Translations under genes and position numbers: made by a program
The notes under the pieces: generated by a model
The model's database searches: none
What the model was told of the DNA's origin: nothing
What the model saw: the letters and a program-made list of their open reading frames with translations, nothing else
Part shown: positions 31,067 to 59,378 of the stretch, in pieces
Layout of the letters: each line of letters begins with the position of its first letter
How positions within the stretch are numbered: position 1 is the first letter of the stretch
Origin: Chara braunii
Taxonomy: Eukaryota; Plantae; Charophyceae
Length of the DNA: 59,378 nt
Direction of reading: 5' to 3'
NCBI GenBank assembly: GCA_003427395.1
Contig: BFEA01000026.1
Span: 3,020,825 to 3,080,202 of the forward strand

Positions 31067-33017
31067 GAGTCTCTTTAGATACTCCTAAAAATGTCAGTTT
31101 TTAAGAATGCATTGTGGTTAGAAGCTTCTTAAAAATGAAATCGTGAAGAAAAATGTGAAGACAACGTTTTTTATTTTATTTTTAAGAAGACATGCTCCAA
31201 TCTATTCGTGGGGAGCAGCACGTGCTGGGAATCGGGCCCAGCGTCCCATATGAAGACTTGTAGAAAAGATTTATGAACAAATTGAAGTACCGAGGCCATT
31301 ACTTGGTTTAGGTTTGAGAGTATCCTCCAAGATCATAAACAAGCTGCTGAAAATCGGGATAGATAATGAACAAAATTAAAAAAACTACGAATATAGATGA
31401 TGAGAAAAACTACGAATCATTTTTTACGATCACTAAACACCTCCTGAAGTCCACCCGCAATTCTCTGAACACTCAAGTATCTAAGGGAATTCCAGCAGAT
31501 CATATAACAAAGCTAAAAAAAAACGACTTATTCTCTGACAAACTCATCCAGACCTCACGCCCCCCATCCGCTAGGTTACAGAGCAACCCGACTCACTCTA
31601 GCTCCGACCAGTGTCGTCCTGTGTCCGCAACCCCAAGTTGTCCCTTAGGATGCCCCTGCATAGCATCCCCACATCTCTCTACAAGGCCTCATGCCCTCAC
31701 CTTCGCCAATTTACAGGGCATCACCCCGGCTTCGGCCAGCGTCGTTCTGGCATGGAACAACCACGGATCCTGAATATAATAGTCTAATTCCAGTGCAGCT
31801 TCGTATAAACCACCAACAGTCTCTCAGAGTCCTGAGAGATTCTTCAAACTACCAGGAAATAACAAGGGTGCTTGTTTTGAATATTCTAGAAGAATCAGAA
31901 AAGGTCCCAACCAAATTCAAGCAAAGGATATAGAAATTCCCCCATTTCCCCTCATCCCCCTGCCCCGAAGCTGTCTCAATGGAAAAGGACAGCCCCTGAT
32001 CACGAGCACTCCTCATCGCCCCCAACTTGGGACAGACCCATTTTCCCCCCTACTCCCACTAAAGGCATCCAGTTCCCACCCAAACTATGCCTCTGCCAAC
32101 CCCTTACCCTTATCTGCCTCCGCTGGGATATGATGTCGACCCATACATCTCCCCCAACCCCAAAATAGAGCATCCCCCAAAATCTGGCCCGTCTCCCTTC
32201 AGGACAATCACCTCCCTCCTTGTGAAGACCCTGCAGAGTAGAGTTTTCCCTCAACCCACCCCCTCACTAGAAGTAATTTGTTTACACTAAAGAGGAGAAC
32301 CAGAATTCCAGATTTTGCTGTAGATTATTTCCTCCCCTCCCCTACATCTCCGGCCCCAACTTGGGATATACCTGCCTCCTCCCCCTACTTCCACTAAGGC
32401 ACCAATTTCCACCCAAAGTATGCCTCAGCCACCCCCTCACCCCTATCGGTCTCCGCTGGGACATAATGCCAGCCCATACATCTCTCCCAGCCCCAGAATA
32501 GGGCAACCCCCAAAAATTTGCCCCCACTCCCTCCAGGGCATTTCACCCCCCACCTTGTGAAGCCCATGCGGAGTAGAGCTCTCCTCCTTAAAACCCCAAC
32601 CCTCCACCCAGACAGAAATAATTCATTAATGCGGCCGAAGGGGAAACAAAAATTAATACTGGAGAAAAAAAAAAAACGAGCCTCAAGAGTTTTAGGAACT
32701 CAAATTCCTAAGATATGAGTGGAAGAATAAGAAATTTATAAGAATTATGATGAATAAAGGTAGATGAGAGTTTTCTTTTTTTGGATTTGCTGATGACGAT
32801 GAACAGCATCCTGAAAATGATGATGATGACAACCAACTCACCTGCTGATGTGAAAGGCAAACAAGGCCTTGAAAAGTAGCATCTAATGATAACAAAACGA
32901 TGATGATGATAGTAATGATGAAAATGAAGATAGAATGATGTTGCCGATCATACTGAAGAACAGTACCAACAACGCCCTATGATTACAAATTGATGATGGT
33001 GATGATGATGATGATGT

Positions 33018-35549: not shown

Positions 35550-35750
35550 AATGTTTTTGTTTTTCCCCCCCCCCCAAATGCTCCGATCTATTCGTGGGGA
35601 GTGACACAGCCCAGCGTCCCTTATAAGATTATAATAAATATTTGAGGATACAAGGACCATTACCCAGCTTAGGCTGAGAAACTTTCAGCAAAGCTATTGA
35701 AATTCATGAACAACTTCTAACCTCACTTCTACCAAACCCCACATTCCAAT
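35550..35750 (-). mobile_element. LINE-type 3' end fragment
   Basis: Internally deleted 3' motif at 35579-35620 plus the upstream GGGTAATGGTCC block shared with 6404 and 31290. Confidence 0.7.
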
Positions 35751-36177
35751 CAGCTCGCCACCTTGACTGACAGTCTGACACCCACCATCGTCATTCTTGG
35801 TCTGGCAAGTCCTTCAAGTTATGTGGTCAAAGTGCTCCGGATCACACGATAGATTATTCACACCCACCCCAAAAGCAACAGTCCAACCTTAGTAGCCCTC
35901 ACCAATTCAGTGATGGAGGCAGGAGTTGGACCCACATCCAGGGGCCGACAATTCGTTGTTTTCGCCGGCAAAATCTGTGCAAAATTCAGCGAAAAAAAGC
36001 AAAAAATCGGCACAATATGACAACTTCGGTGCAAAATTCCCCCAAATTAACAACCCCGATTAATCACCTGTGACGGAGGACAGTCAGTCCCCTCACTTCA
36101 CTTGAGGGCAATCAATGCTGTCCCTGAATGTCCTTATGTTTACACTGAACCTGGTTTCCAGCCTGTTCAGCACCCCA

Positions 36178-36325
36178 TGAGAAGACTGGAGCCATCATGA
36201 AGGACTGTGAGCAGACTGCAGCCATCATAAACTAGTGTGAGCAGACTGTAGCCATCATAAAGGAGTGTGAGCAGACTGCAGCCATCATAAAGGAGTGTAA
36301 GCAGACTGCAACCATCATAAAGAAG
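36178..36325. repeat. 30-bp minisatellite, about 5 copies
   Basis: GACTGCAGCCATCATAAAGGAGTGTGAGCA repeats. Confidence 0.92.
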
Positions 36326-37269
36326 CGGAGAACGTGCCGCTCCCCACCAATAGGTAGAGCAGCCTGATAGCCAAGACCTTGATCCCAACGGTTCCCTCAC
36401 CACCATTGGGATGGAGGGCTTGTGAAAAGAGCGCTTTCTCATAAATACAAAAAATGTGTAACTTTAGTAGATTCACAATAACAAGTTAGGGGATCATTAG
36501 ATACTTCTTGTTGCGTGTTGGGGGCCAATTGAAAGGAAGTTTCCTTCGAAGTTTGGAAGGAAATTTCCGGTGTCGTTCCACCTGTCCTGGAGGTGGTCTC
36601 CCGAGGATGATTCCTTTTGGCCCCCCGCGACCATCTTCATTAGATTATAGTTGGCGGGGGGGGGGGGGGAAATGCCTTGGTCCATCATTGGGTGATGTCC
36701 GTCGTGCGATGGTCCAGCTGCCAAAGCCAGGAAAATTTGAAAGGCGCTGGCAGCGAGACAAAAACTTAAAAAACAATCGACATCCCAGTTCGAAAATCAA
36801 AATTTGAATTGGGTGCTAGTCTGCTAGACATGATGACGGCGACGCGGGGCAGTTGACATCCATACTGGTGACGGTACAAACGGGCATTTGCAGCACCGTT
36901 GTGACGAACCATCTTCTGTAATTGCGCGACTTTCTGCGTGAAGCTGCTTGGGGGAATACGACGGGTCGAATGGGCGAGTTGTGGGAATATGGGTCGGGCG
37001 GGTTAGTCGCATGGATGCCCTCGTATCTTTTTGTTTTTGCTGGAAGTTGTCGGATCGGTGTCGGGAAAATCCCATACCAACGGTTGGGTAACCACGCCTT
37101 GGTGAGCGCGAGAAATAACTGTACCGTAGCTTCTTTCTTGTTTTGCTGTAAGCACTGGGGATTTTGGCGCGATCATCGTGGGGGAATATCGTTTCTTGAA
37201 TTTTCAACTGAGGCCGAGCCCCCACGGGCTCGCGGAATTGTTTTTCGCTTCTGCTTTTTCAGAGTTTCC

Positions 37270-38046
37270 TTTTGAACAGCATTCCCATCCAAACTGATTC
37301 CAGAGACTATAGAACATATATTTCTGCAATGCCCTGGCTCTGTATGGCTATGGCGATGGTGGGACAGGATTTGGAACCAGTTAGAAACATCCCTCCCATG
37401 GCCATGGAACTGGAAAGCGCTCCTTCTGGAAACTTGGAATCCAATTCAAACAGATAACTTCACATCTAATCTATTCACAATTGGAAGAAGAGCAGTTATC
37501 TGGGCATTATGGACCCGCAGATGTACTTACGAAATGGAGGGCGCCCGTCTTGATGGTCCATTCAGGGCTGCGTTCAGGATGAGCCGCCAAGGAATTACCG
37601 TCTAAGCTTCAATGATTGGATCAATATTGACCCTACCATTCCAATGAGACCACTATCAGAATTCCCGGATCCTTTTCCCCCTGTTGGTCTGGCGTTGGTT
37701 CCCAGATCCTAGTATATGCCAGAATTAGAATAGCAACGCCAACTTTCTTCCAATTTTTATTGGGATCAAGCAAGTGCTAGGTGGTCAAGTACATATGGCG
37801 CCCGTACAGGGTGAAGAGGCACAAAATATCAATCTTTGTCTATCTTCCTACTCAAGATCATACGAACAAAAGGGACGCTGGGCCCGGTTCCCAGCATGAG
37901 CTGTACCTTTTCTGATATGATGTCAAGGGACGCTGGACCCGGTTTCCAGCAAGTGCAACTCCCCACCAATGGAAAGGAGCCGCTTTCCAGGTGTTAGCGG
38001 TGTCTGATCTTATCAGCATCACTAACACTTTAGGGGGGTCTGGTTG

Positions 38047-42809: not shown

Positions 42810-45313
42810 TTTCCCCTTCCATTTAAAAAATAAAAATAAAAAAAATCACGGTTGTTTGGGAACTTTGGGGTGTATAATTGGTCTTTGTGGACTGCTGATT
42901 CGTTGACTTCGTTTGTCGACGATTAGGGCAGCGCCGCACGGATACTCACTAGGTGGTATTGGCGCTCATCACAATCGCGATTTTCGAAGACTGGTGAAGC
43001 TCTGCTACCTTGTTGCCATTTGGCGGAGTTAATTAGAGGTATACAGACTGTAGAGTGTGAATTTTCTGAATGGTTGTTGTTTTTGCCCGTGGGTTGGGTG
43101 GTCCATCGCGTGGGTTGGGTTGCTGATTTGGAATTTTGTTGGGGTTGCTGATTGGAGGTGCATAGGGTATAGACCGTATAGATAGAGTTGGAACTTTGTG
43201 AATCATTTTGGAATCATTTTGTCCGTGGGTAATTAGGATTAGATCATTGCCAATCTTGTTTTTTTTTTTTTTTGTGCTTTTGGTTGGTGATTTGTTACCT
43301 GGCTTGGATTTCGCTAGATTAGGGTTGGTTAATAAGTTAATAATGGCGGTTTGGAGAAGGGGTGAATTAGGATTTCGCTCTCTTACATTAGGGAATAGTA
43401 TCCCACCTGTACAACAACCTGGGCCAAAAAAAAAGAAAAAAAAAAAAGAAAGAAGGAACGCGATTTCTGTTTTAGGGTTAGGACTGGGTTTGCTTGTCTA
43501 AGACTTGACCTTGTGGGGCTGCGGTAGAGATAGGTTTGGCTGAGAGGGCCTTGCTTAGCCCGTTTGGCCTCAGCAAATGATGTACGGGACATCGGGCCCA
43601 TTTCCCGGTTATATGATATATGCTTTGTAAAAAGGAAAAAGGAATAACCCAAGTCCACCTGGAGAGGGGTCCCACTAACCTGGCTTTATTCTCTTCAAGC
43701 TGTTGGGCGCGGTGATGTGCGGCTGAAAATGACAAACAGAGTGCGTGGGTTCTCACCCTGCTGCTGAAACAACAGGCTTTGCCGAGAAGATCTTTTTTCA
43801 AAAGACAAACAAAGGAGCCTATCCTGTTAGGACAACCATAGGGATGATAGGGTGCCGCTGCCAGGAATCACCGTGGGTCTGGTCGTTCGCCTCTACAACA
43901 CCCTAGGCTTTTCCAAAAAAAAGCGAAGGAATAAGGGCCTCGCGACACCACTGATACCAATGTCGAAACATCACGAAATTCGACAGAAAACCCCTCTTCG
44001 CCACACCGCATGTCCGAGTGAAGAACTCACGAGTAGTAAGCACAAAAGAGACAAACTGGGGTGAAGATAGGACAAGCGTTGGTGCGTTCTCTTTTTCGAC
44101 ATTCGGGCAAGAATTCGACATCCCATCCGAGGACNNNNNNNNNNNNNNNNNNNNNNNNNNNNNNNNNNNNNNNNNNNNNNNNNNNNNNNNNNNNNNNNNN
44201 NNNNNNNNNNNNNNNNNNNNNNNNNNNNNNNNNNNNNNNNNNNNNNNNNNNNNNNNNNNNNNNNNNNNNNNNNNNNNNNNNNNNNNNNNNNNNNNNNNNN
44301 NNNNNNNNNNNNNNNNNNNNNNNNNNNNNNNNNNNNNNNNNNNNNNNNNNNNNNNNNNNNNNNNNNNNNNNNNNNNNNNNNNNNNNNNNNNNNNNNNNNN
44401 NNNNNNNNNNNNNNNNNNNNNNNNNNNNNNNNNNNNNNNNNNNNNNNNNNNNNNNNNNNNNNNNNNNNNNNNNNNNNNNNNNNNNNNNNNNNNNNNNNNN
44501 NNNNNNNNNNNNNNNNNNNNNNNNNNNNNNNNNNNNNNNNNNNNNNNNNNNNNNNNNNNNNNNNNNNNNNNNNNNNNNNNNNNNNNNNNNNNNNNNNNNN
44601 NNNNNNNNNNNNNNNNNNNNNNNNNNNNNNNNNNNNNNNNNNNNNNNNNNNNNNNNNNNNNNNNNNNNNNNNNNNNNNNNNNNNNNNNNNNNNNNNNNNN
44701 NNNNNNNNNNNNNNNNNNNNNNNNNNNNNNNNNNNNNNNNNNNNNNNNNNNNNNNNNNNNNNNNNNNNNNNNNNNNNNNNNNNNNNNNNNNNNNNNNNNN
44801 NNNNNNNNNNNNNNNNNNNNNNNNNNNNNNNNNNNNNNNNNNNNNNNNNNNNNNNNNNNNNNNNNNNNNNNNNNNNNNNNNNNNNNNNNNNNNNNNNNNN
44901 NNNNNNNNNNNNNNNNNNNNNNNNNNNNNNNNNNNNNNNNNNNNNNNNNNNNNNNNNNNNNNNNNNNNNNNNNNNNNNNNNNNNNNNNNNNNNNNNNNNN
45001 NNNNNNNNNNNNNNNNNNNNNNNNNNNNNNNNNNNNNNNNNNNNNNNNNNNNNNNNNNNNNNNNNNNNNNNNNNNNNNNNNNNNNNNNNNNNNNNNNNNN
45101 NNNNNNNNNNNNNNNNNNNNNNNNAAACAAAATGTAACCTACAGAATCTTTCTTTTTTTTCTTCTTTTTTTTGTCCCTATGAATCTTCACAAACGGCATC
45201 CTTCTTTTTTTATTCTTTTTTCCCCCTTTTAATTAAAGACACCGCCTATCTAGTAGAGGGTGTGGTAAGAGCAGCTCCCCCTAGTAGATGGACAGGAGTT
45301 GGTTCTTTTTCCA

Positions 45314-45400
45314 ATATATGCGTGTCATCCTTGCACAGGGGTCATTTTGCTAATTACCCTTCTCCGTATCGTTCCAATTTTAACGGATGTCCCGAAGGAC
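45314..45400 (-). pseudogene. U6: U6 snRNA retrocopy 1 (3'-truncated, diverged)
   Basis: Minus strand reads GTCCTTCGGGACATCCGTTAAAATTGGAACGATACGGAGAAG(GGTA)ATTAGCA(AAA)TGACCCCTGTGCAAGGATGACACGCATA. Degenerate TSD TTGGTTCTTTTTCCA (45299) / TCGGTGCTTTCTCCA (45401). Confidence 0.93.
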
Positions 45401-45752
45401 TCGGTGCTTTCTCCATCTGCAGAGATGAAGTGGATATGAAGTTCATGCATACAATTCCTATTATGGAAGGAAATCACTGCAGCAGCCTGTTCGGTCTCCA
45501 TCTGGACACCTGAGGTGGATCTGGGATTCGTGCGTAGAATTCCTGATACGGAAAGAAAACAACGCAGTGAAGAGACGGCAAGACACTAAAAGGAGAGAAA
45601 GGGTAAACTGTGTCTGAGTCATATCACTCCCCTCATGCCCCACTTGAGGTTTTTTTTTTTTTTCTTTTTCCACTTGGGTTGGCACACTCCACAGGGAAGA
45701 GAGAAAATAAAAGAAAAAGAAAAAGAGCCTCCTTAGACACTGCAGTGCTCGG

Positions 45753-45910
45753 GGGCCAAGTCCCACTAGCAGCGTTGACCAACCTCAACGCCAGAATCTG
45801 GACGTGTTTGTGTGCAGTTCAGGAAACTCAACACCATTTCTGCACATGTCCGCAAAAGCGTCCAGATTCAGGCATTGAGGTAGCTCAACGCTGCTAGTGG
45901 GACTTAGCCC
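45753..45910. mobile_element. Harbinger-like MITE family C, copy 1
   Basis: TIR GGGCCAAGTCCCACTAGCAGCGTTGA / TCAACGCTGCTAGTGGGACTTAGCCC. Confidence 0.85.
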
Positions 45911-46325
45911 GGGGGACGTTATTCCAAGGATTTCGTCGCCGTTACACCTGTAAGTCCTAGGAGATGAAATTCAAAATCAAAATGTGAAAACAGTGCGAGG
46001 ACAAATCTTTGGGCTCCGCGGATTTCCCAGCCAAATCGTCCACAGCTCCAATGGGGGACAGGGGCAAAACAGGGTGCCGTTTCGGGCCCAGGTAGGGCCA
46101 GGCGTAAGAGTCCAAAATGTGTGTGATTTGGGATATCTTGTTCTAAACGTTGAAAACAATGGAGTCATGATAGACTCAGTGTGGACAGGCTTAGGCAGTG
46201 CGCGATAGAGAAAGTTATGTCTTTCTGCTATAGCCTATCGGAGCACAGACGCCCTGTTTTTTTTTTTTTTTTTTTTATATAAAAAACAGGGTGCACATAC
46301 ACACACATGCACAGAGTCTCTCAAA

Positions 46326-46405
46326 GAGGTCGTGTTTTTTAGCTCAGTTGGTAAGGCACAGAAGTTGCATTCAGGAGGTCGTGGGTTCAATCCCCATTGG
46401 CCTCA
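46326..46405 (+). pseudogene. tRNA-derived SINE head or tRNA pseudogene
   Basis: Acceptor GAGGTCG/TGGCCTC, A box TAGCTCAGTTGG, B box GGTTCAATCC. Extra T-run and broken anticodon arm. Confidence 0.8.
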
Positions 46406-47190
46406 CGTACGTGCCTGGGCAAGCTTGGTGTTCTACCAGCTAGAGATAACCCGTTGGCTCTCCAATCCAGCATTGGCAGGACCTTGGCCAAATATTGTTG
46501 GCTGCTATGCAGCAATGATATTCGCCATTAGACACCACTAATGTGGGGTTGGAGGGGGGTAGGGGGAGGTGCAAGTGACTGGCCAAAGATGCTCGGCACT
46601 AGCATCGCCGGTTTCCCCCGTCGGCAATGCCTGATCACCCTGCATCATCGTGATGAGGGGCTGATACAAGCCTTGCTCTCGCACCACTGCTGTGGTGCAA
46701 ACCTACCCCGTGGGCTGGGGAGAGTTCCAGGTTTGGTTGGTGTTCCCCCGTACTATACATAGAGTAGCAAGAGGATGAGATANAGGAAATAGTAACATCA
46801 TGGAGGTCCCATCCCCTCGCCTTCCACCATCATTCCGACACGGATCCTCAGCCTCCAAGGAGCCTCGCGAGGTCACTCGGAGCCCGAGAATCCGTGTTTC
46901 ACGGAGAGAGGGGAGGGCATGCACGGAGTGGTACGTTACAACCGAGAATCCGGATTGTAGTGGCACCCTATGGGCTGAAAGCCTGAAGCAAAACTGTTTT
47001 TTCCCTCTTTTTTTGTTTTTTTTCCCCCTGGCCAACTCTCCAAGGATAGGTCAGCCGCCACCGCCAAAATTCCAAAATTTCCCCCAGGATTCGTCCTCGG
47101 AGCCCGAGAACAGCCTGAGGATTGTCTCACTACGCCCAAAGACGAAGGAAAATCAAGGAACAAGAGTGATGTAACTGACACTAGAAAACC

Positions 47191-47346
47191 ATTTCTCGAT
47201 TTATGTGTGTCATCCTTGCGCAGGGGTCAGTTGTTAAAAAAAAATAAAAAAAAATAAAATAAAAAAAAATCTTCTCTTTGCGCAGGGGCCATGCTAATCT
47301 TCTCTTTCTCTGTATCGTTCCAATTTTAACGGATGTTCCGAATGAC
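47191..47346 (-). pseudogene. U6: U6 snRNA retrocopy 2 (full span, internally rearranged)
   Basis: Minus strand: U6 5' to GGCCCCTGCGCAA, then AGAGAAGATT plus a T-tract, then TGACCCCTGCGCAAGGATGACACACATAAATCGAGAAATGG. TSD ACACTA(G/C)AAAACC at 47178 and 47347. Confidence 0.95.
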
Positions 47347-47368
47347 ACACTACAAAACCCCATGAACA

Positions 47369-47401
47369 GGACATCTGTTAAAATTGGAAAGATACAGAGA
47401 A
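47369..47401 (+). pseudogene. U6: U6 snRNA 5' fragment (copy 3) fused to a LINE
   Basis: GGACATCTGTTAAAATTGGAAAGATACAGAGAA. Confidence 0.92.
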
Positions 47402-49062
47402 CAATCAACAGCGTAAATGGGCATATGAGCCTAACACCCCCATCAGCAAGCTGCCTTTTGGTCCTGCAGAATGGGAATGGAAGACTGGCAAGCAGACCCC
47501 TATATGGGAGTACACAGTCAAGGAGGGGTACGGGGCCATGCGCGTCACTCCACCGATAACAGAAGTGGTAAAGAACAGATGGGAAAGAGATTCCCCGCTC
47601 GCTCAACAAGACCTCACTGACCTGGCATGGTCCCGGTATTCCAATATCAAGCCAACGGCCCACCGAGCCCTTCAGTGGCAGATCCTCCACAGATGCCTCC
47701 CCACCCCCAACTGGATTGTCTCCCTCACCAATCTAGAGCAGTGTGGCATTCTCTCCCCGATTTGCTCCTACTGCGGGAAGTCCTCACCACCGGCGAGAGC
47801 AACGCTGGAGCACTGCCTACTGGCCTGCCCAATGGTGGCGCAATTATGGTGCTGGTGGGATTCGTTGTGGCACTACCTCACGGCCCAGCATCTCCCCTGG
47901 AGCCACCCACTCATATGACTGGGTGAACACTCTCCTCACCTCAAAAAATGGGATGCCTTTGCAGCAAATCTTTTCTCGTACATGAGACTTGCTCTACTGA
48001 TGCTGGCCTGGAGGATGCTGTGCTCCCATGAAAGGGATAAGTGTTTCTTTGGCTTCCTACAAGCGCGGGAGGTGGTGATTGCAACAATCACCAACCATAC
48101 CCAAGCGGCCTGGAAACAGCTCAAAAAAGACCTTGCAGATATGAAAGACCAGACTGAGAGAGAACAGTGCAAAGATATGTTTGAATCCATATGGCTGGAT
48201 CAAATAGAAAGCTGGCGAAACTGGATGACCAGGAAAACTTAGTCTGGAATAGGTGGGCGGCAGAAGAACAGACATGGGAAAGACTCCCTCGGTCTCACTT
48301 TACAGTTCCTCACCAAGAACAAAACTTTCTTCTGCTCCCCCCCCAGCACCCTCCCCCGCCTACCGTCCCCAATCTTTGACAGCACCCCGCTCCCCCCACC
48401 CCTCTTCCCTGCTCCTCTCCCGCCTCTTGACCTCCGTCTAGCCCCTCCACCCGGGTGAGTCATGCCCCGTCAGGTCAAATGAGATAATCTGAATACAGGG
48501 TAATAGCGTCTGAACGAGCTCGGGGGCATGCGGCAAGAATACTAGGGATACGGATGTCAGGCTTAGAATGTATGAAGAGACTGAACGGAAAGGGTAGAAA
48601 GCATGGGGATAGCAGGGGCAAAAGACTGCCTGGNTAGAATGAGGGGTAAAAGTACACAGCGGGGGATAGTAGGGAATGGGGTGTGCGTATGGGACCGGCC
48701 GGCTCTGGCCAGTCGGGTCTGGGGAAACACTGCTCATAAGATCTAAACAGGCCGGGGGGTATCAGAATTGAGGATTTGGTCAGAGGTTCTAAAAGGGTTN
48801 ACGGTCTAGAAGGTCATACAGAGCAGACTGGTAAGGTGGTGTCGCAACCGGGCTTATCCCCCGGCAATAGGAAGCAGACNCGTNTGAACAAGTACGTACG
48901 TGCTACTGTCAAAATTTCAAACTTTCATAAAATGTAACAAGGGACGCTGGACCCGCTTTCCAGCAGGTGCTGCTCCCCACCAATAGATGGAGCCATCCAA
49001 AACGGGGTCTGCTAATGGACGATGCTCCTATCACCTTCATTAGCATGATCTTCGACTCAACG

Positions 49063-49111
<49 letters not shown>

Positions 49112-49140
49112 TAAGCATGATTAAAAATAAAAATAAAAAA
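47402..49140 (+). mobile_element. 5'-truncated LINE, the 3' partner of the U6 chimera
   Basis: LPFGPAEWEW..IWEYTVKEGY..RALQWQILHRCLPT..ICSYCG..LEHCLLACP. 3' motif at 48941-48993, poly(A) at 49068-49109. Confidence 0.95.
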
Positions 49141-49153
49141 ATCCCATGAACAG

Positions 49154-49320
49154 GGCCGAGGTCCCACTAGCAAAGAGGATGGGATCGAATGCCTGAATCT
49201 GGGATGTGTTTTATGCCGAGATGCAGAAAAACAGTTCAATCTCGATTTCCTGCACCTCTCCACAAACAAGTCCACATTCAGGCATTCGATCCGATCCTCT
49301 TTGCTAGTGGGACCACGCCC
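49154..49320. mobile_element. Harbinger-like MITE family C, copy 2, TSD CAG
   Basis: About 45-bp TIR GGCCGAGGTCCCACTAGCAAAGAGGAT... CAG at 49151-49153 and 49321-49323. Confidence 0.9.
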
Positions 49321-49385
49321 CAGGACTGCCATCGAATCTCCTTTTCTTCTTCTGCCCGGCAAAATAATTCAAGCTTTCCCACTTC

Positions 49386-49573
49386 TTTTCTTTTCTTTTT
49401 CTTTTTTTTGTGAAAAAGGGGGATGGCCTTGAGATATTATCATTGACCTGACCGGCCCCAAACAATTCATTAGTAGTTGGTTTGTATTCATCAAGTTCCA
49501 TCATCTGGATTCGAACACAGGTCTGTATTTCAACAGTTCATGGGTGTACCCACTGAGCTACGCTCTTGGGTAC
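49386..49573 (-). mobile_element. tRNA-derived SINE
   Basis: Minus strand has A box TAGCTCAGTGG, B box GTTCGAATCC and an A-rich tail. TSD TCAAGCTTTCCCACTTC (49369) / TCGAGCTTTTCCACTTC (49574). Confidence 0.85.
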
Positions 49574-50535
49574 TCGAGCTTTTCCACTTCCAAGTGCCAA
49601 AAAAAAAAAAAAAAAAAAAAAGTGCCAACCAATGACAATCATAACACATAGCGGAGGTGGGGTCGGGGAGATTCGTGAGAAGTTGGTCTCAGAGATGGAA
49701 AAAAGAAGCGAGCTGCGCTAACGAGAGCGCCTGACGAGCCGCCCGGCGGGGCCCGGTCGTGCCTCGGTCAGACTAGGGTTCGGCGCGTGGGCGTCGGCGA
49801 CGGCGTCAACAACGTTGACGAAGTGAGGGCCGTCCAACTGACCACCATAGCCTACGTACTTCGGGCGACAGGAAGGAAGACCTGGTGGGTCGTGTCAGGA
49901 AGGACGGGCGACTCTTGCAGTGCAGCAGAGCAAAGGACGAAGAGACCCATGGAGGACGACAGTCAAACGAGGAAGCTGACGAAGGGGCAGGCCGTAGCCG
50001 ATGTAAAGGGAAACGGGGAAGCGGGGCCAATGAAAGCAGTTAGCGCACTCTGAAGCGGAGATGCTGGGAAAGAGAAGTCGGGGAAATGAAGGCGGAATAA
50101 GGGGAGGGCCAGAGAGAGAGGAGGCAGAGCCATGAGTGCCTCGTGAGTGGGAGACAGACGAATTTCGAGGACGGTGGAACAAAGAGGCGAAGTATCAGAA
50201 GAGTTGGACAGGAGACATACGGAGAACAATCCGAATGGAGTAAAAGGATAAGACGAGGAGTTCGCCGCAGAGGGGGCGGGCTAAAGGAGCAAGGATCACA
50301 ACCGTGGAAGACCCGACCAACGAGTGTTTACAGTGTCATCACAAGGAAGGCGAGTGGGAGGGGCCCCCCTGTGCCCCTCCTCGGTAAGCCCGGCTGGCCA
50401 GTCCTTCCTGCGCTCAGTCCCCCTGGCATCCCTCCCGCTAGACCTTGCCAACCCCCCCGCCATCCCCCCCCTTGAACCTTGCCGCCCCATCCCCACCCCT
50501 TATTCCTCATTGGCAAATCCCTTTAAGGCTTTGAC

Positions 50536-51069
50536 GACTCTCCCTCACCTGTGACTCTCCCTCCCGTAGACTCCCCAAGTCTCCCCTCATCGTCAGTCAT
50601 CATCAGTCACGGGGTCGTGCTCACACTCGGGCCTTTGCCTGCAGGGTGTCAGTGACTCTCCCTCACCTGTGACTCTCCCTCCCGTAGACTCCCCAAGTCT
50701 CCCCTCATCGTCAGTCATCGTCAGTCACGGGGTCGTGCTCACACTCGGACCTTTGTCCGCAGGGTGTCAGTGACTCTCCCTCACCTGTGACTCTCCCTCC
50801 CGTAGACTCCCCAAGTCTCCCCTCATCGTCAGTCATCGTCAGTCACGGGGTCGTGCTCACACTCGGACCTTTGTCCGCAGGGTGTCAGTGAGACCGCTTT
50901 ACTGTCACCACGTGTACATTCCTCATTGGTATATCCCTTTAAGGCTTTGATGACTCTCCCTCACCTGTGACTCTCCCTCCCGTAGACTCCCCAAGTCTCC
51001 CCTCATCGTCAGTCATCGTCAGTCACGGAGTCGTGCTCACCCTCGGACCTTTGTCCGCAGGGTGTCAGT
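50536..51069 (+). promoter_or_regulatory. 118-bp 5'UTR monomer array, four copies
   Basis: Near-identical units start at 50536, 50654, 50772 and 50952. A promoter role is inferred from rodent L1 monomers. Confidence 0.75.
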
Positions 51070-51360
51070 GAGACCGCTTAACTGTTGCCACATGTACACC
51101 GCGGTATTGGCCTGTGACGATCCCTAATCATGAGATCACTGGAATGTCCCGTGTAAGCTGACCCCCCCCGACGTACTCAGGAGTCTGCCGCTCCTCCTCA
51201 TCCGGGAAACCGCTTGATAATAACCAATCGATCTTGCCCACTTGGAGTGACAGACCGCAGACAAGTCACAGGTGTACACGTCTACACCAGCCTCTATAGC
51301 ACACAAGTACGTAATAGCGAGGGGGGAAAACGCCCCCCGCAGAAGGCGGCAATATCGCCA

Positions 51361-54300
51361 ATGGGGAGAAGAGGAGCGCAAGGGAGAGGTCTCCTTTTCC
51401 ACAGAAAATACGATTCTCGGTCTATGGTGAACCACCGTGTAAACTGGGCAAGGGAGTGGCGTCCGTTGAATGAGGGGAGGAAAAACGTGTCTGCCTCTAG
51501 CCCATCTCGCCCGCGGGAGGGTCATTCGGTCCTTGGGGGGAGAAACGACACCGTGGCTCCCCTCCCGCCTCCCCAGGACGGATCTCGGAGCACGGCACCG
51601 AACGCAACAGAACATAGCCACGGGGGCACACAATCATGGGCGGCGAAACTCAAACAATCGCCGGCAGGGATTACCGCAGACAAGGCGGGAAGAAGCCCTG
51701 CGCTCACACCCTTAAAAGCCTCATTGATGTCTCTGTTGACCCCAGCTCCTCACCAGATGAATAATGATCCCCTGGCGTTGACTGCAATTCACCCGGCGAG
51801 AAGCCTCTTCATACAGAAACTGTTTGTACAACCCCATAAGTTGTACCAGGAAATTGATGGATTCATCCACCCCATATGCAGTTTCCCCCAACAGGCGATG
51901 ACGACAAGAAATATAATATATTCCCAACACGCGGTTCAATTCCACTTCCGGGAGGTGCAGCCCGCCTTAGCGATGAATGATAGGATTAAATGGGTGACAG
52001 CTATCCTGGCCACCTTCAAATTCACGAAACAAGATGTGGTGGACCATTTCCTCATTGAATCTGTCGGCCAGGCAACCATAACAGTCATCGCCCTCTACCC
52101 GGGGGACCATGCGCATCTGATGGGCCTTAAAAACCTTAAATTTCGCGGTCACCCAGTGCAGATCGCAAGGTGGCGACCGGAACAACCACTCACAGCAGAT
52201 GACCGTAGACAACAAATCATGGAGAGCAACTTCTGGGTTGAATTCCGATACGCCCCGCTGGCGATCCAGGGGGCCATCATCCATGACCTCCACTCCCTGG
52301 CACGGTTGAAAGGGTTCGTCCACGAATTGCCAACCTTCTTGGAAAAGAGGGACGACACCCTCCTCGTAGCGGTTGAGTGGTATCCATCAAAACCGTTCCC
52401 CTTGCATGACTCGTGGGATTATATCTATGGGGGAAAACGCGTAACAGTGCCCATCAGCCACAGTCAGAATCCCTGGTGCTATACATGCAAGGAAAAAGGC
52501 CATCTGTGTACTGATTTCCGCTGCCCAAAATCCCGGAAAAAAACTGTTAATGGCCTGGTTTCTCCTCACCCCACGGACGATGGAACATGGTTGCCGAATG
52601 ACGAGGCATTGAAAGGATGGTCCTTCCACACCCAGGGGAAGGACACACCAGGATGCTGGATCTGGAAAGGACAAGGAAAACCGGGGTCTGCACCGCAATC
52701 CTCCGCCCGAGTGCTGAGTCAACACAGCCGAGGCCGGGCACCTGAAGGTGCACCCCACCAACACCAGGGGGGCAAGGAAAACCCACCTGAGCACACACAA
52801 GAGCCTATTGAGATACATTCTGGTGCGGAACAGGAAAGTGAACAGGAAGAGGACGACGAGGATGATTGTCCGCTACAGAGGCACACGACCAGGTGCAACA
52901 TGGAGAAGCAGAGTGGGGGTGAGGCGACACAGAATTGTAGGAGCCCGAATGACATGGAATCTGGGGCACCCCATCGGAGGCATGGATCGACCTCTGGCTT
53001 GCAACCGATCCAGCACCCACAGACGGACAGGGGTCGTAAGGCAGCAAAGCGGAAGATGAGGACGACTAGACCTCAGGCAGGACTGGCACCAAACCAAAAG
53101 ACGGCTCCATTACAGATGGACCACGCCAGGGAAGAAGCCTCGGGCGATGGGACCAGCCCACCATCACCCGCGATGCAGCAGCAGGCTGCTACCCAGAACT
53201 CCCCCCTTAACAAGGACGGGACATGTGTGGACCGCGCGAGCAGTACTGCGGTTCCCCATCAGGGAGATAGAACCCTCCCACCACCACTCGCAGAACAGCA
53301 GCAAGAAGCTACCCAGGATTCCCCCTCTAGCGAGGATAGGCTACGTGTGGACCAAGCGACCACCACAACGGTCAGCCAGCCGGCGGAAGGCATGCACAAT
53401 CAACAAGGGCAGAGGCTTGCCCACCAAGGNNNNNNNNNNNNNNNNNNNNNNNNNNNNNNNNNNNNNNNNNNNNNNNNNNNNNNNNNNNNNNNNNNNNNNN
53501 NNNNNNNNNNNNNNNNNNNNNNNNNNNNNNNNNNNNNNNNNNNNNNNNNNNNNNNNNNNNNNNNCTTGCCCACCAAGGGTTGCAACAGCCAGCAGCCACC
53601 ACGCCCTCCTCTCTAATCGGAGATAGGCTACGTGTGGACCAAGCGACCACCACAACGGTTAGCCAGCCGGCGGAAGGCTTGCACAATCAACATATCGCCC
53701 ACCACGGGTTGCAACAGCAAGCAGCCACCACGTCATCCTCTCTAATCAGGGAAGGGACTGAAGGCAACCATAACCCGTCTGAGAATGTACCCTTGGGGTC
53801 GCAAGCTGGGGACCCGCTGAAACTTCACAGGTACCAAGCTCCAACAGCCTCTCATCCGGTAGGGGGCAAGCAAAACCAACACGGGGGGCCACAGGCCCTC
53901 CACGGGGAGCAGCAGACTGTGGCTACCAGACCCCCCTCCCCGACCGAAGAAGGGGCTGAAGGCAACCAAAACCGGTCAGAAATGATACCAGTGGGCTCGC
54001 CAGCGGGCCCCGCTATGGCCGAAGCCATAACTGCATGACGCCCTCATGACCTAAGCGACCACCACCAAAATCATCAAGCAACCACAATGGTGGAATTGTC
54101 AGCCGGAGGACAGCAGGATCCGCACCGGAATAAGGGCGCACACTAGGTCCAGCGGCAACACACGCCGCTCCAACAGCCCCTCTCGGGGTGCGAGGAACGG
54201 GGCTCCATATGTAAGTCAGGGGGGACAACCCTGGCCTCAGGGGCTGAACAGGTGGCCACAGTGGTAATGGCCTTACCAACTGGTGGCCTGCATGAACAGC

Positions 54301-57005
54301 GCGAACAGGAAGCCGCAACGGGTGTGCCCTTACCTGCTGGAGGACAGCAGGAATACCGCCACCGCCAGCAGGGCAAGCCTGGGTTGTTGCTGCGCACAAC
54401 TGCACCTGCCCCACCTTCTCTTGAACTGGGTCGCCCGCAGCGCAGTGACCACCCGGGTGTTGCACAGCCAGATAAGGGGAAACCACATGACCAGCATGCA
54501 GCCCAAAAAATGCAACTGGCGGGCCTGCCAGCTGGAGGCCCGCTGAAACTTCACGGACACCAGGCCGCAACGGATTTAGCCACAGTGGCGGTCTCGCCAA
54601 CCGGAGGACCACAGGAACATCACGCGCACCGGGTTATTCACACAGACCTATGGCAACATACGCCTGCCCAGCAGTCCCTTTCTGAAGGAGGGGAGCATAG
54701 TACCATACAAAAGGCAGGGCAGATAGTTCCAGTCTCGGAAGCTGAAAAAGAAGCCGCTTTGGTAGGGGTCACATATACAGGAGGCCTCCCCGTCGGTGGC
54801 CGGAACGTACACCACGAACAATCATAGAGTGTGGCACAACCCGGGGCATTGCAGCATACGCCTGCATCTACCCCGTCCCCCTTGGAGTCGGATCGCCCCT
54901 TGTGCTTGGATCACCCAGCTGATGCACAAAGGGAGATCTACCCCCCGAGCAATGCTCTCATAAAAGCTATCTCCCCCCCCAAACACCGCGGACCCCATTT
55001 GAGGGGCATTAACAAAATTGTCCGCTTCCAGTACCTCCACAATGTGGCAAAAGGGATGAAGAACCTGTTCCCAGCGAACGCAGGGTTGTCAAACCAGGGG
55101 GACAATATGGGGACCCTCGCCTCTCACATCATACCTGGAGAGCCCCAGCAAACTCGGAGCCTGCGGAGCCTGCAACTCCTAACCAAGGAGCAGGCGATTG
55201 CCTCGCCGACCCTCGCCACCCGCCCCAAGGAGCAAGCCAGCCCGCAATACGACACACAAAAATTAAGCTCACAACAGCAACATGCAGTAGCCAACACCCC
55301 CTACTCTCAGGAGGAGCCCCTCCTGCAGGGGACAACGGACACAAACGGGGAGGCTGGACCAGTAGGAGGTACGTCGCGATACCGTCAGCTAATGTTGGAC
55401 CAAGAGCAAGCTGACGCTGAGCTGTGAGAAGCGATCGTATCGAGAAAGGCCAGACAAGCAACCCTTTCCCAAATGGACGTTCACATCCGTGACGTGACGT
55501 CTGCATCAGACACAGATACGGATGCAGAAATGGATAAGGGAGAAACGCAGGGGGACACATCCGGGGGGGCAGCCCTCACGTCGGAACAACATTTACTTCT
55601 CCATCACCTAGCTGCACAGCAGATGCTGCACCCACAGCTGCAATGCGACGCACCGACCGCCACCCCGACTGCTATCCAGGAAATGCAGGACCCATTGACA
55701 AGGGATGCACCGGCCTACGGAGCGGGCCCGGATGACCAAGGACTCATGATCTAGCACCTTTTCATGCTCCAACATGATATCCAAACACAAAGGGCTGCAA
55801 TCGGGCTGGTCGACTCACAGGACGGTCGTCACCTCTTACAAGAAAGACAACACTGGCAGAGACAATTGCAGGGTAGCCATGCAAATGACTTACAAACTTA
55901 CCAACAAGGACAGCCGGCGGCATGTCACATGCACCCCTGCACCCAATCGCACAGTCATTTTATCTCACACGTCCACAGTGGAATGGTCCCATCCCTAGAG
56001 GGTGCAGCACTAGACCAGCATGGAGGAATTCACCCGGCGTTGGACAATGAGATGTCCTCGGAGCAGTCGTACCACACTCCGCAATGCTCACACCCGCTAG
56101 AAGGTACGCACCCGGCCATGGACCAGGAAATGGAGACAACACCATTCGGGGCTCCGCTGCCGGCTCAAACAATCGGCCCACAATCCACACACCAAGCAAA
56201 TGACACGACAGGAATCCACCCGGCCATGGACCATGAAATGGAATTTGCTCCCCAACAAAAATCGCTGATATGGGACAAGAAGGTGCGGGCACATTTAAAG
56301 GAATTGACGGACTGGATCCTACAAAACGCGCTGGCCCCCGGGGGGCGCACCCTGAGCGAAGTCGTTACCCCCATGCAATGGGAAAAAATCCGAAGAAAAG
56401 TCCTGGCCAAACAGGAAGTTAAGCAGGTGGTCAACCGATTCTGCACAATGGAGGAGGTGGACTGGGGGCTGGTGGCAAAAGCCCTCATACTCACAGCCAC
56501 CTCACTGTTAGAGGATATTGACAAAGCCATGACAGACCACACAGGACACGCAGCCACCACAGTCAGGGTGGAACAGCCATCGCTGCAGCAATTACAAACG
56601 GGACTCAGATCTCTAGATAGCAAACCGGTGGGGGAACATGAGGAAGGGGGCATTCGCATTGCCGATTGGGGAATTGATCTTCATACACAGACTTTGCCAA
56701 GACAAGGGCTGCTGTCGCAGTCACAGCTACCCATCCTTAATAGGATACCGGCCTTCTTACTTACCCCGAATGCAGCAAATGAACCGTCAACATTGGCACC
56801 GGGGGCAGCCCTGACTATCGACCTCCTCATAGATGGTGACTCGGACAGCGACAAGCAGGAGGAGCAGTCCGAGGATGGATCAGACGAAGAGTCGGAAGGC
56901 AGCACAACGCAAGACCTGGGTAAGTGGATCGGCCTCCCCACCGCACAGTGGATCCACGTGAATGGGCCTCTCTCAAGTGTTTGCCTGCCTCTAATACAAA
57001 ATTGA
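51361..57005 (+). pseudogene. LINE ORF1, very long (gag-like zinc knuckle plus Q/P/H-rich extension), interrupted by point stops
   Basis: Open from ATG 51361 to the gap, with CYTCKEKGH..C at ~52477. After the gap, ORFs 53580, 54252, 54831, 55473 and 55764 all share one frame. Confidence 0.75.
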
Positions 57006-57039
57006 TGAAAGCGGGGGACACCTGTTCACAAGCCCTCCG

Positions 57040-59037
57040 ATGGACACGCACTCACACATGGACTGTGTGACGCACCAACCTCCACACTCACAGCCCCCCC
57101 GGCAGCCCCCCCCACAACCCCCCACTGGCCCATACGTCCTGCCACCGGTAAGACGCCCTCCGGATTGGGCACGAAAGATTGCCCTCGCAGACCTGGACGT
57201 CAGAGTACTAAACCTCAATGGCCTGGCACAGGCTTCGCCCGAAAAAAAGGAAGCCATATGGAAAATGCTAAAACCAGAGGGCTCGGGATCATGGCTTGAC
57301 GCAATATGTGTTCAAGAGACCCACCTCACGGAATCAATAGCGCATAAAGCGAAGGAAAAATGGGTGTGGCCATATACTGTCTTCTCAGCCCTGGCAAGGT
57401 CCGGCGCGTCAACAGGAGTGGCAGTATGGATCCCCCACTCGTCTTGGCTCAAACCCGTGGCCCATGAATGCAACCGCCAAGACAGACGGTGGGTTTATGT
57501 TAAGGCCATCATAGGGGATGACGAAATCATCATAGTGAGCGTCTATGGCCCTAACGATCCGGGGGAGAGAGTTCACTTTCTGCACAACCTACACCAACAG
57601 TTGCCCACTGATCTGCCTCTGATTATCGCGGGCGACTTCAACATCACCCCCGAACTGCACCTGGACAGAAGGACCTCACACACGGTCCCCATATACAGGT
57701 GGGCCCCGGACGTGGATATATTAGCCCGCTTCATGGCTTCCCTACAGCTTAAGGATGCTTACATGGTTTTGCACCCTTCAAAAAGGGCATACACATGTGT
57801 GAGACCTAACGGAGCGGCGAGCAGGTCAAACTCACGCATAGATTTCTTCCTCATTTCGGAGGATTTAGTGGGAGTATTGGCGGTGGCGGATATTATGACT
57901 CTCAGCCCCTGTAAATCTTTCGACCATCGGGGGATAGTGTTAGACCTGTCCTTCCACCATCCTATTGAACGCGGGCCGGGGATTTATAAATTTAACACGT
58001 CTCTCTTAAAAATCCCGGCTCTGAAAGATTTGGTCAACGAATTCTGGTTCTACTTGTCCACAAAAAGAGAAGCTGCCCCCTCTACGGTAGATTGGTTTAA
58101 TGACGGACTGGCGCAGTTGCGAGACAGGGTTAAAAAGTTTTTCATTACTCATGCGAGGGACCGTAAGGCGGTGCTGGATAAACTGCTGAACGAATCGGAA
58201 AACTGGGACTCCAAACTGCAAATGGACCCACTAGATGAAGAAACCTTTAACAAACTGCAGCTTGCTAGAGACCACCTACAATCCTACCTGGACGCCCAGG
58301 CGGAGGCGTGGAGAATCCAGGCGCGGATAAAAAAAAGGGACACAAATGGGACGATGGCTAAATCCTTCTTTAGGAAAGCAACGGCCAGGGCAAGACAGTC
58401 GGTGGTCCCATCACTGAGGCACCCTTTCGATCATTCTCTCCCCAAAGCTGCCAACGCCTATGGCATAGTTGATTATGCAGCCCAGTTCTACCAAAAGTTG
58501 TACGCTTTGGAGTCCGCACAATGGGGGACGGAGCAGTTGGTTGCAGCACGCTGCACCATGCTGCAATACCTCCCCGCCATGCTGTCTACATCTCAAAGAG
58601 AGCAGCTGGAAGCCCCACTTACGCCGGAGGATCTCCTAGAAGCCCTGAAAGGCATGGATGTTGAAAAGACCCCCGGATTAGACTCCTTTCCCAAAGAATT
58701 CTGGCTCAAGGCCTTCCAACCGGATGTACCTGGCGCAAGGTGGGCGGCACTCAAAAAAGACCCGGATCATGATTGCATAAAGCCGGTGGAAGAGCTCACT
58801 CGAATTAGGGTGGTGGGCTCTGAAGACACGGGCTACTTTGCCTACGAAATGGCCTCCCCGATCTGTGCCCTCCCGTTTGATCCAGATGAGTGGGAATGGA
58901 GTGGTCGCAGACCAATCCCAGTCTGGCAATACACGGTGAAAGAAGGGTACAAGCAAGCTCATCCTCTCATAGGCTCCACACCAATCGTGCAGAATCGCTG
59001 GAGAAGAGACTCCCCGGTGAGCAGCTCCGCCATGTGA
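57040..59037 (+). CDS. LINE ORF2 derivative: intact APE endonuclease plus linker fused in frame to the C-terminal region, no RT
   Basis: NLNG, ICVQETH, VYGP, GDFN, SRIDF and FDH are all present. KTPGLDSFPKEFW is followed directly by the post-RT segment (LPFDPDEWEW). Confidence 0.88.
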   Translation: MDTHSHMDCVTHQPPHSQPPRQPPPQPPTGPYVLPPVRRPPDWARKIALADLDVRVLNLNGLAQASPEKKEAIWKMLKPEGSGSWLDAICVQETHLTESIAHKAKEKWVWPYTVFSALARSGASTGVAVWIPHSSWLKPVAHECNRQDRRWVYVKAIIGDDEIIIVSVYGPNDPGERVHFLHNLHQQLPTDLPLIIAGDFNITPELHLDRRTSHTVPIYRWAPDVDILARFMASLQLKDAYMVLHPSKRAYTCVRPNGAASRSNSRIDFFLISEDLVGVLAVADIMTLSPCKSFDHRGIVLDLSFHHPIERGPGIYKFNTSLLKIPALKDLVNEFWFYLSTKREAAPSTVDWFNDGLAQLRDRVKKFFITHARDRKAVLDKLLNESENWDSKLQMDPLDEETFNKLQLARDHLQSYLDAQAEAWRIQARIKKRDTNGTMAKSFFRKATARARQSVVPSLRHPFDHSLPKAANAYGIVDYAAQFYQKLYALESAQWGTEQLVAARCTMLQYLPAMLSTSQREQLEAPLTPEDLLEALKGMDVEKTPGLDSFPKEFWLKAFQPDVPGARWAALKKDPDHDCIKPVEELTRIRVVGSEDTGYFAYEMASPICALPFDPDEWEWSGRRPIPVWQYTVKEGYKQAHPLIGSTPIVQNRWRRDSPVSSSAM

Positions 59038-59378
59038 CATATCCCCTGGGACAAGTACGCACATATAATGCCCACATCCCAAAGGGCCCTGCAGTGGCAA
59101 ATACTTCACCGCTGTGGCAAATACTTCACCGCTGCCTCCCAACTCCGGACTGGCTGACCTCCCGCTCCTCCCTAGAACAACAAGGCGTGCTATCCCCCAT
59201 CTGCACCCACTGTGGAGACAACGCGCAGCGCAGACGGGCAGACCTGGAGCACTGCCTATTAGCATGCCCAATGGCTAAAAGAGTGTGGCAGTGGTGGGAT
59301 GCCTTCTGGTTCACAATGACAGACAAAGTTTTCCATTGGGATGTCAGTCTCATTCTGTTGGGACAACAGAATTCCTTC
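59038..59378 (+). pseudogene. zf-RVT part of ORF2 beyond a stop and a 20-bp duplication
   Basis: RALQWQILHRC; GTGGCAAATACTTCACCGCT duplicated at 59094-59133; then SPICTHCG..LEHCLLACP. Confidence 0.9.

What the first reader, a model, noticed from the sequence alone, without database searches (positions are those of the whole stretch)
45314..49120. All three U6 copies are disrupted at the same ACAGAGAA^GATTAGC position: possible U6-targeting retroelement
Seen: copy 1 has a 4-nt insertion (GAGAAG-GGTA-ATTAGC). Copy 2 has a 6-nt duplication (AGAGAA AGAGAA GATTAGC) and a second jump back to AGAGAAGATT. Copy 3 breaks after ACAGAGAA, and right after the LINE poly(A) the sequence resumes GATAAGCATGA (49110-49120), close to the next U6 bases GATTAGCATG(G/A). 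Known: Tx1-clade LINEs target multicopy small-RNA genes such as U2, tRNA and 5S, and some fungal U6 introns lie near this catalytic region. Inference: a LINE family that cleaves U6 genes at this site, or an RT-pausing hotspot. Caveat: the 11-mer could instead copy ATTAGCATGA at 49039, and other LINE ends in this window show no U6 flank.
Basis: partly seen in the sequence, partly recalled or inferred. Interest (0 to 1): 0.78.

Follow-up and report, generated by a model that had tools for sequence, protein, structure and literature searches.

The report
LINE nested inside a U6 retrocopy
Three damaged copies of the U6 splicing-RNA gene lie within 2 kb of what is likely a stonewort (Chara) genome, one split in register by a truncated jumping gene (LINE) that likely landed at a cut-prone purine stretch, and whether this LINE actually seeks out U6 is untested.

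Summary
The three U6 pieces and their lesions are real, but they are different lesions at neighbouring positions, not one lesion at one position. Each copy has its own target-site duplication (TSD), so all are likely retrocopies. Copy 3 is a 44-nt U6 fragment (Rfam positions 14-57) split at 46|47 by a 1.67-kb 5'-truncated LINE with an A42 tail. The in-register resumption is unlikely by chance (p about 3e-5). The whole cassette sits in one 14-19-bp TSD. Lesion clustering is moderate (p 0.004-0.07). None of six other tailed ends sharing the LINE's 3' UTR motif touches U6. No genome-wide test was possible. Best reading (0.5): a LINE without U6 specificity inserted later into an existing U6 retrocopy, at a nick-prone purine tract. 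Rivals: template jumps at modified U6 bases (0.23), a U6-targeting LINE (0.17), or a self-copied LINE piece (0.10). Weak hints for targeting are a LINE 3' stem resembling U6 48-61 (p about 0.01-0.03) and a Tx1L-like endonuclease loop in a relative. The scan has noted U6/LINE chimeras in other genomes, but my look-ups showed no in-register split.

The parts
45294..45313 (+). Copy 1 TSD, first copy (pairs with 45396-45415; 20 nt, 4 mismatches)
   Evidence: 8 of 3000 random window pairs scored as high
45314..45400 (-). U6 copy 1, 3'-truncated retrocopy; 4-nt insertion at 45355-45358 (model 47|48) and 3-nt insertion within 45345-45348 (model 53-55)
45396..45415 (+). Copy 1 TSD, second copy; overlaps the first U6 bases (junction microhomology)
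47178..47190 (+). Copy 2 TSD, first copy (pairs with 47347-47359; 13 nt, 1 mismatch)
   Evidence: 4 of 3000 random pairs scored as high
47191..47346 (-). U6 copy 2, near full-length retrocopy with duplications of model 41-46 and 41-68, both starting at model 41 with no junction microhomology
   Evidence: junctions read from the sequence
47230..47269 (+). A-tailed mini-insert (6 nt plus 34-nt patterned A tail) antisense to U6 at model 49-51, replacing 4 nt; likely an extremely truncated LINE end
   Evidence: D1; origin inferred
47347..47359 (+). Copy 2 TSD, second copy; overlaps the left TSD of the copy-3 cassette by 6 nt
47354..47372 (+). Left TSD of the U6-LINE cassette (19 nt with 1 mismatch, 14 nt perfect); its last 4 nt are also U6 model 14-17; bottom-strand edge reads TTTT/G
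   Evidence: (D13); 0 of 3000 random pairs scored as high
47369..47401 (+). U6 copy 3, 5' part (model 14-46), inverted relative to copy 2, arms 34 nt apart
   Evidence: I3, I4
47402..48242 (+). 5'-truncated LINE ORF2 C-terminus with zf-RVT; one in-frame stop at 47916-47918
   Evidence: (PF13966, E 9e-5, below the curated cut-off)
48243..49067 (+). LINE 3' UTR; family motif at 48938-48994; subfamily-specific terminal stem-loop about 49003-49054 whose arms (49004-49016, 49039-49048) resemble U6 model 48-61
   Evidence: (z -2.3)
49068..49109 (+). LINE poly(A), 42 nt; no inner TSD visible (up to 2 A could be hidden)
49110..49120 (+). 11-nt piece continuing U6 in register (model 47-57); equally close to LINE 49039-49049
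49121..49141 (+). TT plus patterned A-rich tail of the outer cassette
49138..49326 (+). Right TSD of the cassette (49138-49153 plus 49324-49326), interrupted by a MITE at 49154-49320 with a CAG duplication
   Evidence: (I2)

Best explanation
A 5'-truncated LINE sits in register inside a 44-nt U6 fragment that shares one target-site duplication with it, and it likely arrived in a second, later insertion at a purine stretch that LINE endonucleases would nick easily, without being U6-specific. Shown: three U6 pieces, each with its own TSD; the in-register split; the LINE's ORF2 end, 3' UTR and poly(A). Inferred step 1: LINE machinery reverse-transcribed U6 RNA into copies 1 and 2. It also made the A-tailed fragment (copy 3) 20 bp from copy 2, either from U6 RNA or by fold-back copying of copy 2 primed by the 4-nt microhomology at the TSD end. 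Inferred step 2: the ACAGAGA-box purine tract gives a pyrimidine-rich bottom strand that can be nicked and can prime on poly(A). Staggered nicks there, filled in and joined, gave the two duplications of copy 2 that share model position 41. A nick there in copy 3 primed the 1.67-kb LINE with a TSD of 0-2 bp. All products are dead pseudogene sequence.
For: The TSDs of all three copies score above chance (8, 4 and 0 of 3000 random pairs). Any blunt or short-TSD nested insertion gives the in-register split automatically, with no extra assumption. A-tailed tracts are dense here (35 in 57.7 kb). A 45-nt target is hit with p 0.027, and two hits in 250 nt have p 0.010. Other motif-sharing ends show no convincing long TSD, so a missing inner TSD is not unusual. 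None of 6 other tailed ends is U6-flanked. The U6 shell looks slightly older than the LINE: 3 changes in 44 nt against about 2% LINE differences from sister contigs (table 8), p 0.06. Tandem duplications from breaks with 3' overhangs are a described signature (PMC8355091, abstract only). U6 retrocopies made by LINEs of several clades are described (PMC4476161, sections 8 and 10).
Against: The sites coincide more than chance predicts (p 0.004-0.07), and the LINE junction shares its edge (model 46) with the 6-nt duplication of copy 2. The inferred nick for the LINE is not a classical poly(T)/A junction. The outer TSD has the L1-like edge and could belong to the LINE event itself. The age difference is not significant. 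The LINE 3' stem resembles the target more than 99% of control windows do (37 of 4697 score as high), which this reading leaves as coincidence. I did not test in this genome that purine tracts are generic nick hot spots.
Confidence: 0.5

Rival explanations
1. All lesions arose during reverse transcription of U6 RNA. The LINE enzyme paused at modified bases and jumped between templates, so copy 3 would be a single-event U6-LINE-U6 chimera and copy 2 a chain of U6 fragments.
For: One TSD with an L1-like edge encloses the whole cassette and there is no inner TSD. Both copy-2 duplications start at model 41, which is human m6A43 (PMC5855946 passages). Segments end at model 46 (twice) and 68, matching Arabidopsis putative Nm sites Am43 and Am65 (PMC9241379 Table 1; my -3 offset fits the base identity of 9 of 11 listed sites). 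Tripartite chimeras within one TSD are known (PMC2104539, abstract). The LINE 3' end can pair with U6 47-66 at -21.1 kcal/mol (52 of 2000 controls as low), which could tether the RNA.
Against: It needs an exact return to register after 1.7 kb, and at least two jumps in each of two neighbouring copies. Known U6/L1 chimeras carry mostly full-length U6 (PMC11838501 discussion). Am43 and Am65 are not among the sites common to both Arabidopsis studies, and no Chara map was seen. The shell looks slightly older than the LINE (p 0.06).
Confidence: 0.23
2. This low-copy LINE subfamily is sequence-specific for U6. Its endonuclease would cut around model 41-47, its 3' stem would help by pairing with the nicked strand, and the duplications in copy 2 would be abortive cuts.
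For: The in-register insertion, and an edge shared with the copy-2 duplication. Only about 4-7 near-identical copies, judged roughly from contig depth (62.6-89.6 against 11-16 for divergent contigs in X1). The stem arms resemble U6 48-61 in both orientations, while the related end at 37982-38046 does not (score 9 against 5.5). The closest relative in the window has a 12-residue endonuclease hairpin loop that scores best against the Tx1L-loop chimera LTx (63.7 against 57.4-57.8 bits). Tx1 families target U2, U5 and 5S genes (PMC4494074 passages). A 6-bp inner TSD could be masked by A miscalls between two A runs (inference, unchecked).
Against: There is one filled site only, and it is in a pseudogene fragment. 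0 of 6 other motif-sharing tailed ends are U6-flanked. The mini-insert in copy 2 is in the opposite orientation. None of the 19 loose ends shown (of 469) looked U6-like by eye. The endonuclease examined belongs to a relative about 50-56% identical in the C-terminus, and loop grafting did not transfer Tx1L specificity (PMC1950540 passages). The stem resemblance is weak (p about 0.01-0.03).
Confidence: 0.17
3. One ordinary LINE insertion. The 33-nt U6 part would be 5'-junction filler copied by fold-back from neighbouring copy 2, and the 11-nt piece a stutter copy of the LINE's own 3' stem arm, so the apparent register is coincidence.
For: Copy 3 is an inverted copy of the adjacent copy-2 region, starting at a 4-nt microhomology with the TSD end. 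The piece matches LINE 49039-49049 as well as it matches U6, and is followed by TT plus an A tail like the LINE's own end.
Against: The filler would have to stop exactly at model 46 and the piece start with the U6 base rather than the LINE base (my estimate is about 1 in 100-200). Copy 3 shares no derived change with copy 2.
Confidence: 0.1

Closest known systems
U6/LINE chimeric pseudogenes and 3'-truncated snRNA retrocopies (Doucet et al. 2015, PMC4476161; passages and sections 8 and 10 read)
   Same: U6 sequence 5' of a truncated LINE in the same orientation within one TSD; TSD-flanked truncated U6 copies; non-random truncation in purine-rich segments.
   Different: Here U6 is cut at 46 rather than full length, and it resumes after the LINE poly(A). 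The host is likely a charophyte alga; the word 'plant' does not occur in that paper.
snRNA-targeting non-LTR elements Keno (Tx1 clade, APE endonuclease) and Utopia (PMC4494074, PMC4640811; passages read)
   Same: A LINE inside an snRNA gene sequence with target sequence on both sides; low copy number.
   Different: Their target is U2 (U5 for some Tx1). Specificity there rests on many copies, and here there is one. The 2015 paper lists only Dada-U6 for U6.
Dada-U6 DNA transposons (PMC3706591; passages and Figure S2 read)
   Same: They insert in U6, and their TSD ends at position 70, which is the right edge (model 68) of the 28-nt duplication in copy 2.
   Different: Dada makes a 6-bp TSD and has non-U6 terminal bases and a DDE transposase. 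Copy 2 has a 28-nt U6-like repeat and no Dada ends. The copy-3 insert is a LINE at another site.
Tripartite LINE chimeras of Magnaporthe (PMC2104539; abstract only)
   Same: Three parts within one 14-bp direct repeat; switching at preferred positions.
   Different: There the parts are three different transcripts; here the outer parts are contiguous halves of one sequence.

Membership tests
Target-specific Tx1-clade LINE (Keno type) | More than 20% of family copies flanked by the target (criterion in PMC4494074) | tested here: inconclusive
   1 of 7 motif-sharing tailed ends in the window, but the other 6 are different subfamilies; sister-copy flanks not readable
Target-specific Tx1-clade LINE (Keno type) | RT phylogeny inside the Tx1 clade | not tested
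   This copy lacks RT; no named reference set was at hand; homologues of the relative were unnamed and 21-25% identical
Target-specific Tx1-clade LINE (Keno type) | APE-type endonuclease | tested here: inconclusive
   Absent from this truncated copy; present in the relative at 56995-59034 (PF03372, E 6.7e-11; best PDB hit LTx)
Target-specific Tx1-clade LINE (Keno type) | Fixed 3' junction across independent copies | not testable with these tools
   Only one junction is available
U6/LINE chimeric retrocopy | U6 sequence 5' of a truncated LINE, same orientation, one TSD | tested here: met
U6/LINE chimeric retrocopy | U6 part reaches its 3' end, and the poly(A) abuts the TSD | tested here: not met
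   U6 stops at model 46; 11 more U6-like bases and a second tail lie between the poly(A) and the TSD
snRNA retropseudogene (copies 1 and 2) | U6 copy flanked by a TSD | tested here: met
   20 nt with 4 mismatches, and 13 nt with 1 mismatch; 8 and 4 of 3000 controls
Dada-U6 | 6-bp TSD at U6 65-70 with non-U6 element termini | tested here: not met
   Compared by eye with Figure S2; the repeat in copy 2 is 28 nt and U6-like up to the junction
Spliceosomal intron in U6 | GT...AG ends | tested here: not met
   The insert begins CA and ends in poly(A)

The most novel reading that the evidence does not exclude
A low-copy charophyte LINE subfamily targets the catalytic region of U6 genes. It would be the first U6-specific non-LTR retrotransposon I could find, with a 3' stem-loop that mimics U6 48-61 and helps select the site by base pairing, leaving duplication scars in U6 retrocopies that act as decoys.
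Probability: 0.17. Interest if true: 0.75.

Novelty: new member of a known kind. Interest (0 to 1): 0.36.

Why it matters
On the best reading this is pseudogene debris. It still shows that LINE-made U6 retrocopies, described mainly in vertebrates, also occur in a likely charophyte genome, and that the ACAGAGA-AGC region is lesion-prone there. If the targeting reading holds, it adds U6 to the targets of non-LTR elements (four paper searches, listed no such element; most subscription journals and Repbase were not searched). It would also extend snRNA targeting by APE-type LINEs to streptophyte algae, and offer a testable case of RNA-assisted target choice. One pass over the host assembly would settle it.

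Tried and rejected
No whole genome is held for this window. Reads and contigs were laid only on the LINE body, not on the U6 copies or the poly(A) junction, so the junction letters, a possibly hidden inner TSD and the genome-wide U6 break map remain open; 563, 490 and 509 contigs laid in three DNA runs. Only 19 of 469 loose ends were shown; all looked by eye like LINE-internal divergence, so the test is inconclusive. One RNA run (about 6% read) gave 18 reads, none 95% or more alike. No RNA holder was listed. Collection scans with the 3' UTR motif gave 1 match at a contig end with no 3' flank and none in genome or viral contigs. The protein-based scan gave one weak, unusable locus (E 3e-4). The word-index homologue search found nothing. 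The look-up by sequence among earlier findings was empty, as was the place look-up with U6 words. Rejected: Dada-U6 footprint; spliceosomal intron; simple slippage for the copy-2 duplications (no junction microhomology, though perfect 6-nt tandem repeats are common, 35 against 11 in shuffles); dating by the MITE (no family copies close enough; arm mismatches are transversions). ARAGORN at a relaxed threshold gave only noise. Supplements were read only for PMC3706591 (Figure S2). The U6 truncation map of PMC4476161 is in a figure I could not see, and it bears on the hot-spot question.
Full report
Setting. The window is eukaryotic repeat-rich DNA with assembly gaps. The LINE remnant in the finding has 13 relatives at E 0.001 or better among protein representatives. 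Of 10 looked up, 3 are named Chara braunii proteins, so the host is likely Chara. No whole genome is held. U6 positions below are RF00026 model positions read from the consensus; human numbering is +2.

Observation. Rfam finds two U6 matches on the minus strand (45294-45400 and 47246-47348). A BLAST of 45101-50600 against the window finds only these and a 33-nt third piece at 47369-47401. Copy 1 has a 4-nt insertion at 47|48 and a 3-nt insertion at 53-55. Copy 2 reads [5' end to 46][41-68][41 to 3' end]. Its last segment carries an antisense A-tailed mini-insert at 49-51 that replaces 4 nt. Both duplications start at 41 and neither junction has microhomology (read). Copy 3 covers 14-46, then the LINE (47402-49067) and A42, then 11 nt matching 47-57, then TT and a patterned A tail. 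The resumption has 1 mismatch in 10 (p 3.2e-5), and 1 of 69 A-runs in the window shows it. The lesions are therefore neighbours of four kinds. A simulation conditional on lesion counts gives p 0.004-0.073, depending on how events are counted. That is more than chance locally, but not beyond what a scan of very many windows could select.

Each copy has its own TSD. Copy 1: 20 nt, 4 mismatches, 8 of 3000 controls. Copy 2: 13 nt, 1 mismatch, 4 of 3000. The cassette holding copy 3, the LINE, the piece and the tail: 17 nt, 1 mismatch, 0 of 3000, extending to 19 nt when a MITE with a CAG duplication is taken out of the right copy. All three are thus likely retrocopies, not genes. The cassette TSD overlaps that of copy 2 by 6 nt. 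Copy 3 is an inverted copy of the adjacent part of copy 2, with arms 34 nt apart, and starts at a 4-nt microhomology. It may have been copied locally by fold-back, but no shared derived change proves this.

The LINE. It holds the ORF2 C-terminus (zf-RVT, E 9e-5) with one stop, an 825-nt 3' UTR and a terminal stem-loop (z -2.3). Contigs of three DNA runs laid on its body numbered 563, 490 and 509, of which 33, 20 and 24 were 99% or more alike. Near-identical contigs have about 4-7 times the depth of divergent ones. I read this loosely as a small young subfamily, about 2% from this copy; the tool warns that depth is not copy number. Six other tailed ends in the window share the 3' UTR motif at about 79-93% identity. 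None is followed by U6, and none has a convincing long TSD. The closest relative (50536-59378) has an APE endonuclease whose hairpin loop has 12 residues and scores best against the Tx1L-loop chimera. The paper describing that chimera reports that the graft did not transfer Tx1L specificity (passages).

The piece after the poly(A). It matches the LINE's own 49039-49049 as well as U6 (1 mismatch in 11; p about 0.002), because the 3' arm of the LINE stem resembles U6 48-57 and the 5' arm (49004-49016) resembles its complement. Against the canonical U6 20-mer, 37 of 4697 control windows align as well and 52 of 2000 form as stable a duplex; the related end at 37982-38046 scores lower. This is a weak hint, not a result. 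The register still favours a U6 origin of the piece.

Mechanism. A later insertion into an existing fragment gives the register without further assumptions. With 35 A-tailed tracts in 57.7 kb, a 45-nt target is hit with p 0.027. The shell has 3 changes in 44 nt against about 2% for the LINE (p 0.06; 0.01-0.15 for rates of 1-3%). Zero-microhomology duplications that share an edge fit staggered nicks filled in and joined (PMC8355091, abstract). I therefore put a nested insertion at a nick-prone purine tract first (0.5). Template jumps at modified bases come second (0.23): junctions fall on human m6A43 and A70 (passages) and on putative Arabidopsis Am43 and Am65 (Table 1), but an exact return after 1.7 kb is hard to explain. 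True U6 targeting gets 0.17, and filler plus self-copy 0.10.

Comparison and novelty. The structure works like known LINE-made U6 pseudogenes (PMC4476161, sections 8 and 10), but it fails the usual chimera test because U6 is split rather than complete (PMC11838501, abstract and first part of the discussion). It is not Dada-U6 (PMC3706591, passages and Figure S2; PMC8869645, passages) and not an intron. [quoted passage not shown] Earlier scan notes describe U6/LINE chimeras and RNA chaining in other genomes; I did not test them. Verdict: real, probably ordinary retrotransposition debris with an unusual layout, and a cheap decisive test outstanding. Interest 0.36.

Noticed in passing
window 50536-59378 (+): Long LINE with 118- and 180-nt tandem repeats at its 5' end, an ORF1 with a CCHC-type knuckle and an APE endonuclease. 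ORF2 runs from the post-endonuclease region straight into the C-terminal region, so the RT appears deleted.
   Followed up: partly
window 49592-49628 and 45640-45676: Poly(A)-only insertions with short TSDs (9 nt, 8 of 3000 controls; 7 nt, 61 of 3000), likely extremely truncated LINE events.
   Followed up: partly
window 45753-45910 and 49154-49320: Two related MITEs with 50-58-nt terminal inverted repeats; the second has a CAG duplication.
   Followed up: partly
window about 46330-46400 (+) and 49490-49570 (-): tRNA-like A and B box sequences seen by eye, possibly SINE heads or tRNA pseudogenes; ARAGORN at the default threshold found none.
   Followed up: no
window 48938-48994, 37924-37981, 17169-17223, 31194-31247, 9479-9518, 6445-6469, 35580-35601, 36142-36360: A conserved 55-nt motif near the 3' end of several otherwise divergent LINE families. 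Two have different but similarly shaped terminal stem-loops after it (z -2.3 and -4.7). This is a candidate RT recognition element.
   Followed up: partly
copies 1, 2 (last segment) and 3: Three of four copies of model position 57 read A where the Rfam consensus has G, suggesting a U6 variant in this host or two RNA templates in copy 2.
   Followed up: no
window 25190-25702 (+): PIF1-like helicase fragment, possibly part of a Helitron.
   Followed up: no
L001:2401-2530: A metagenome contig of bacterial-looking genes ends in two copies of the LINE 3' UTR motif after an adapter-like stretch; likely a chimeric contig.
   Followed up: no
window 45410-45482 and 45495-45567: 73-nt direct repeat (74% identical) just upstream of U6 copy 1 (D4); unexplained.
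   Followed up: no
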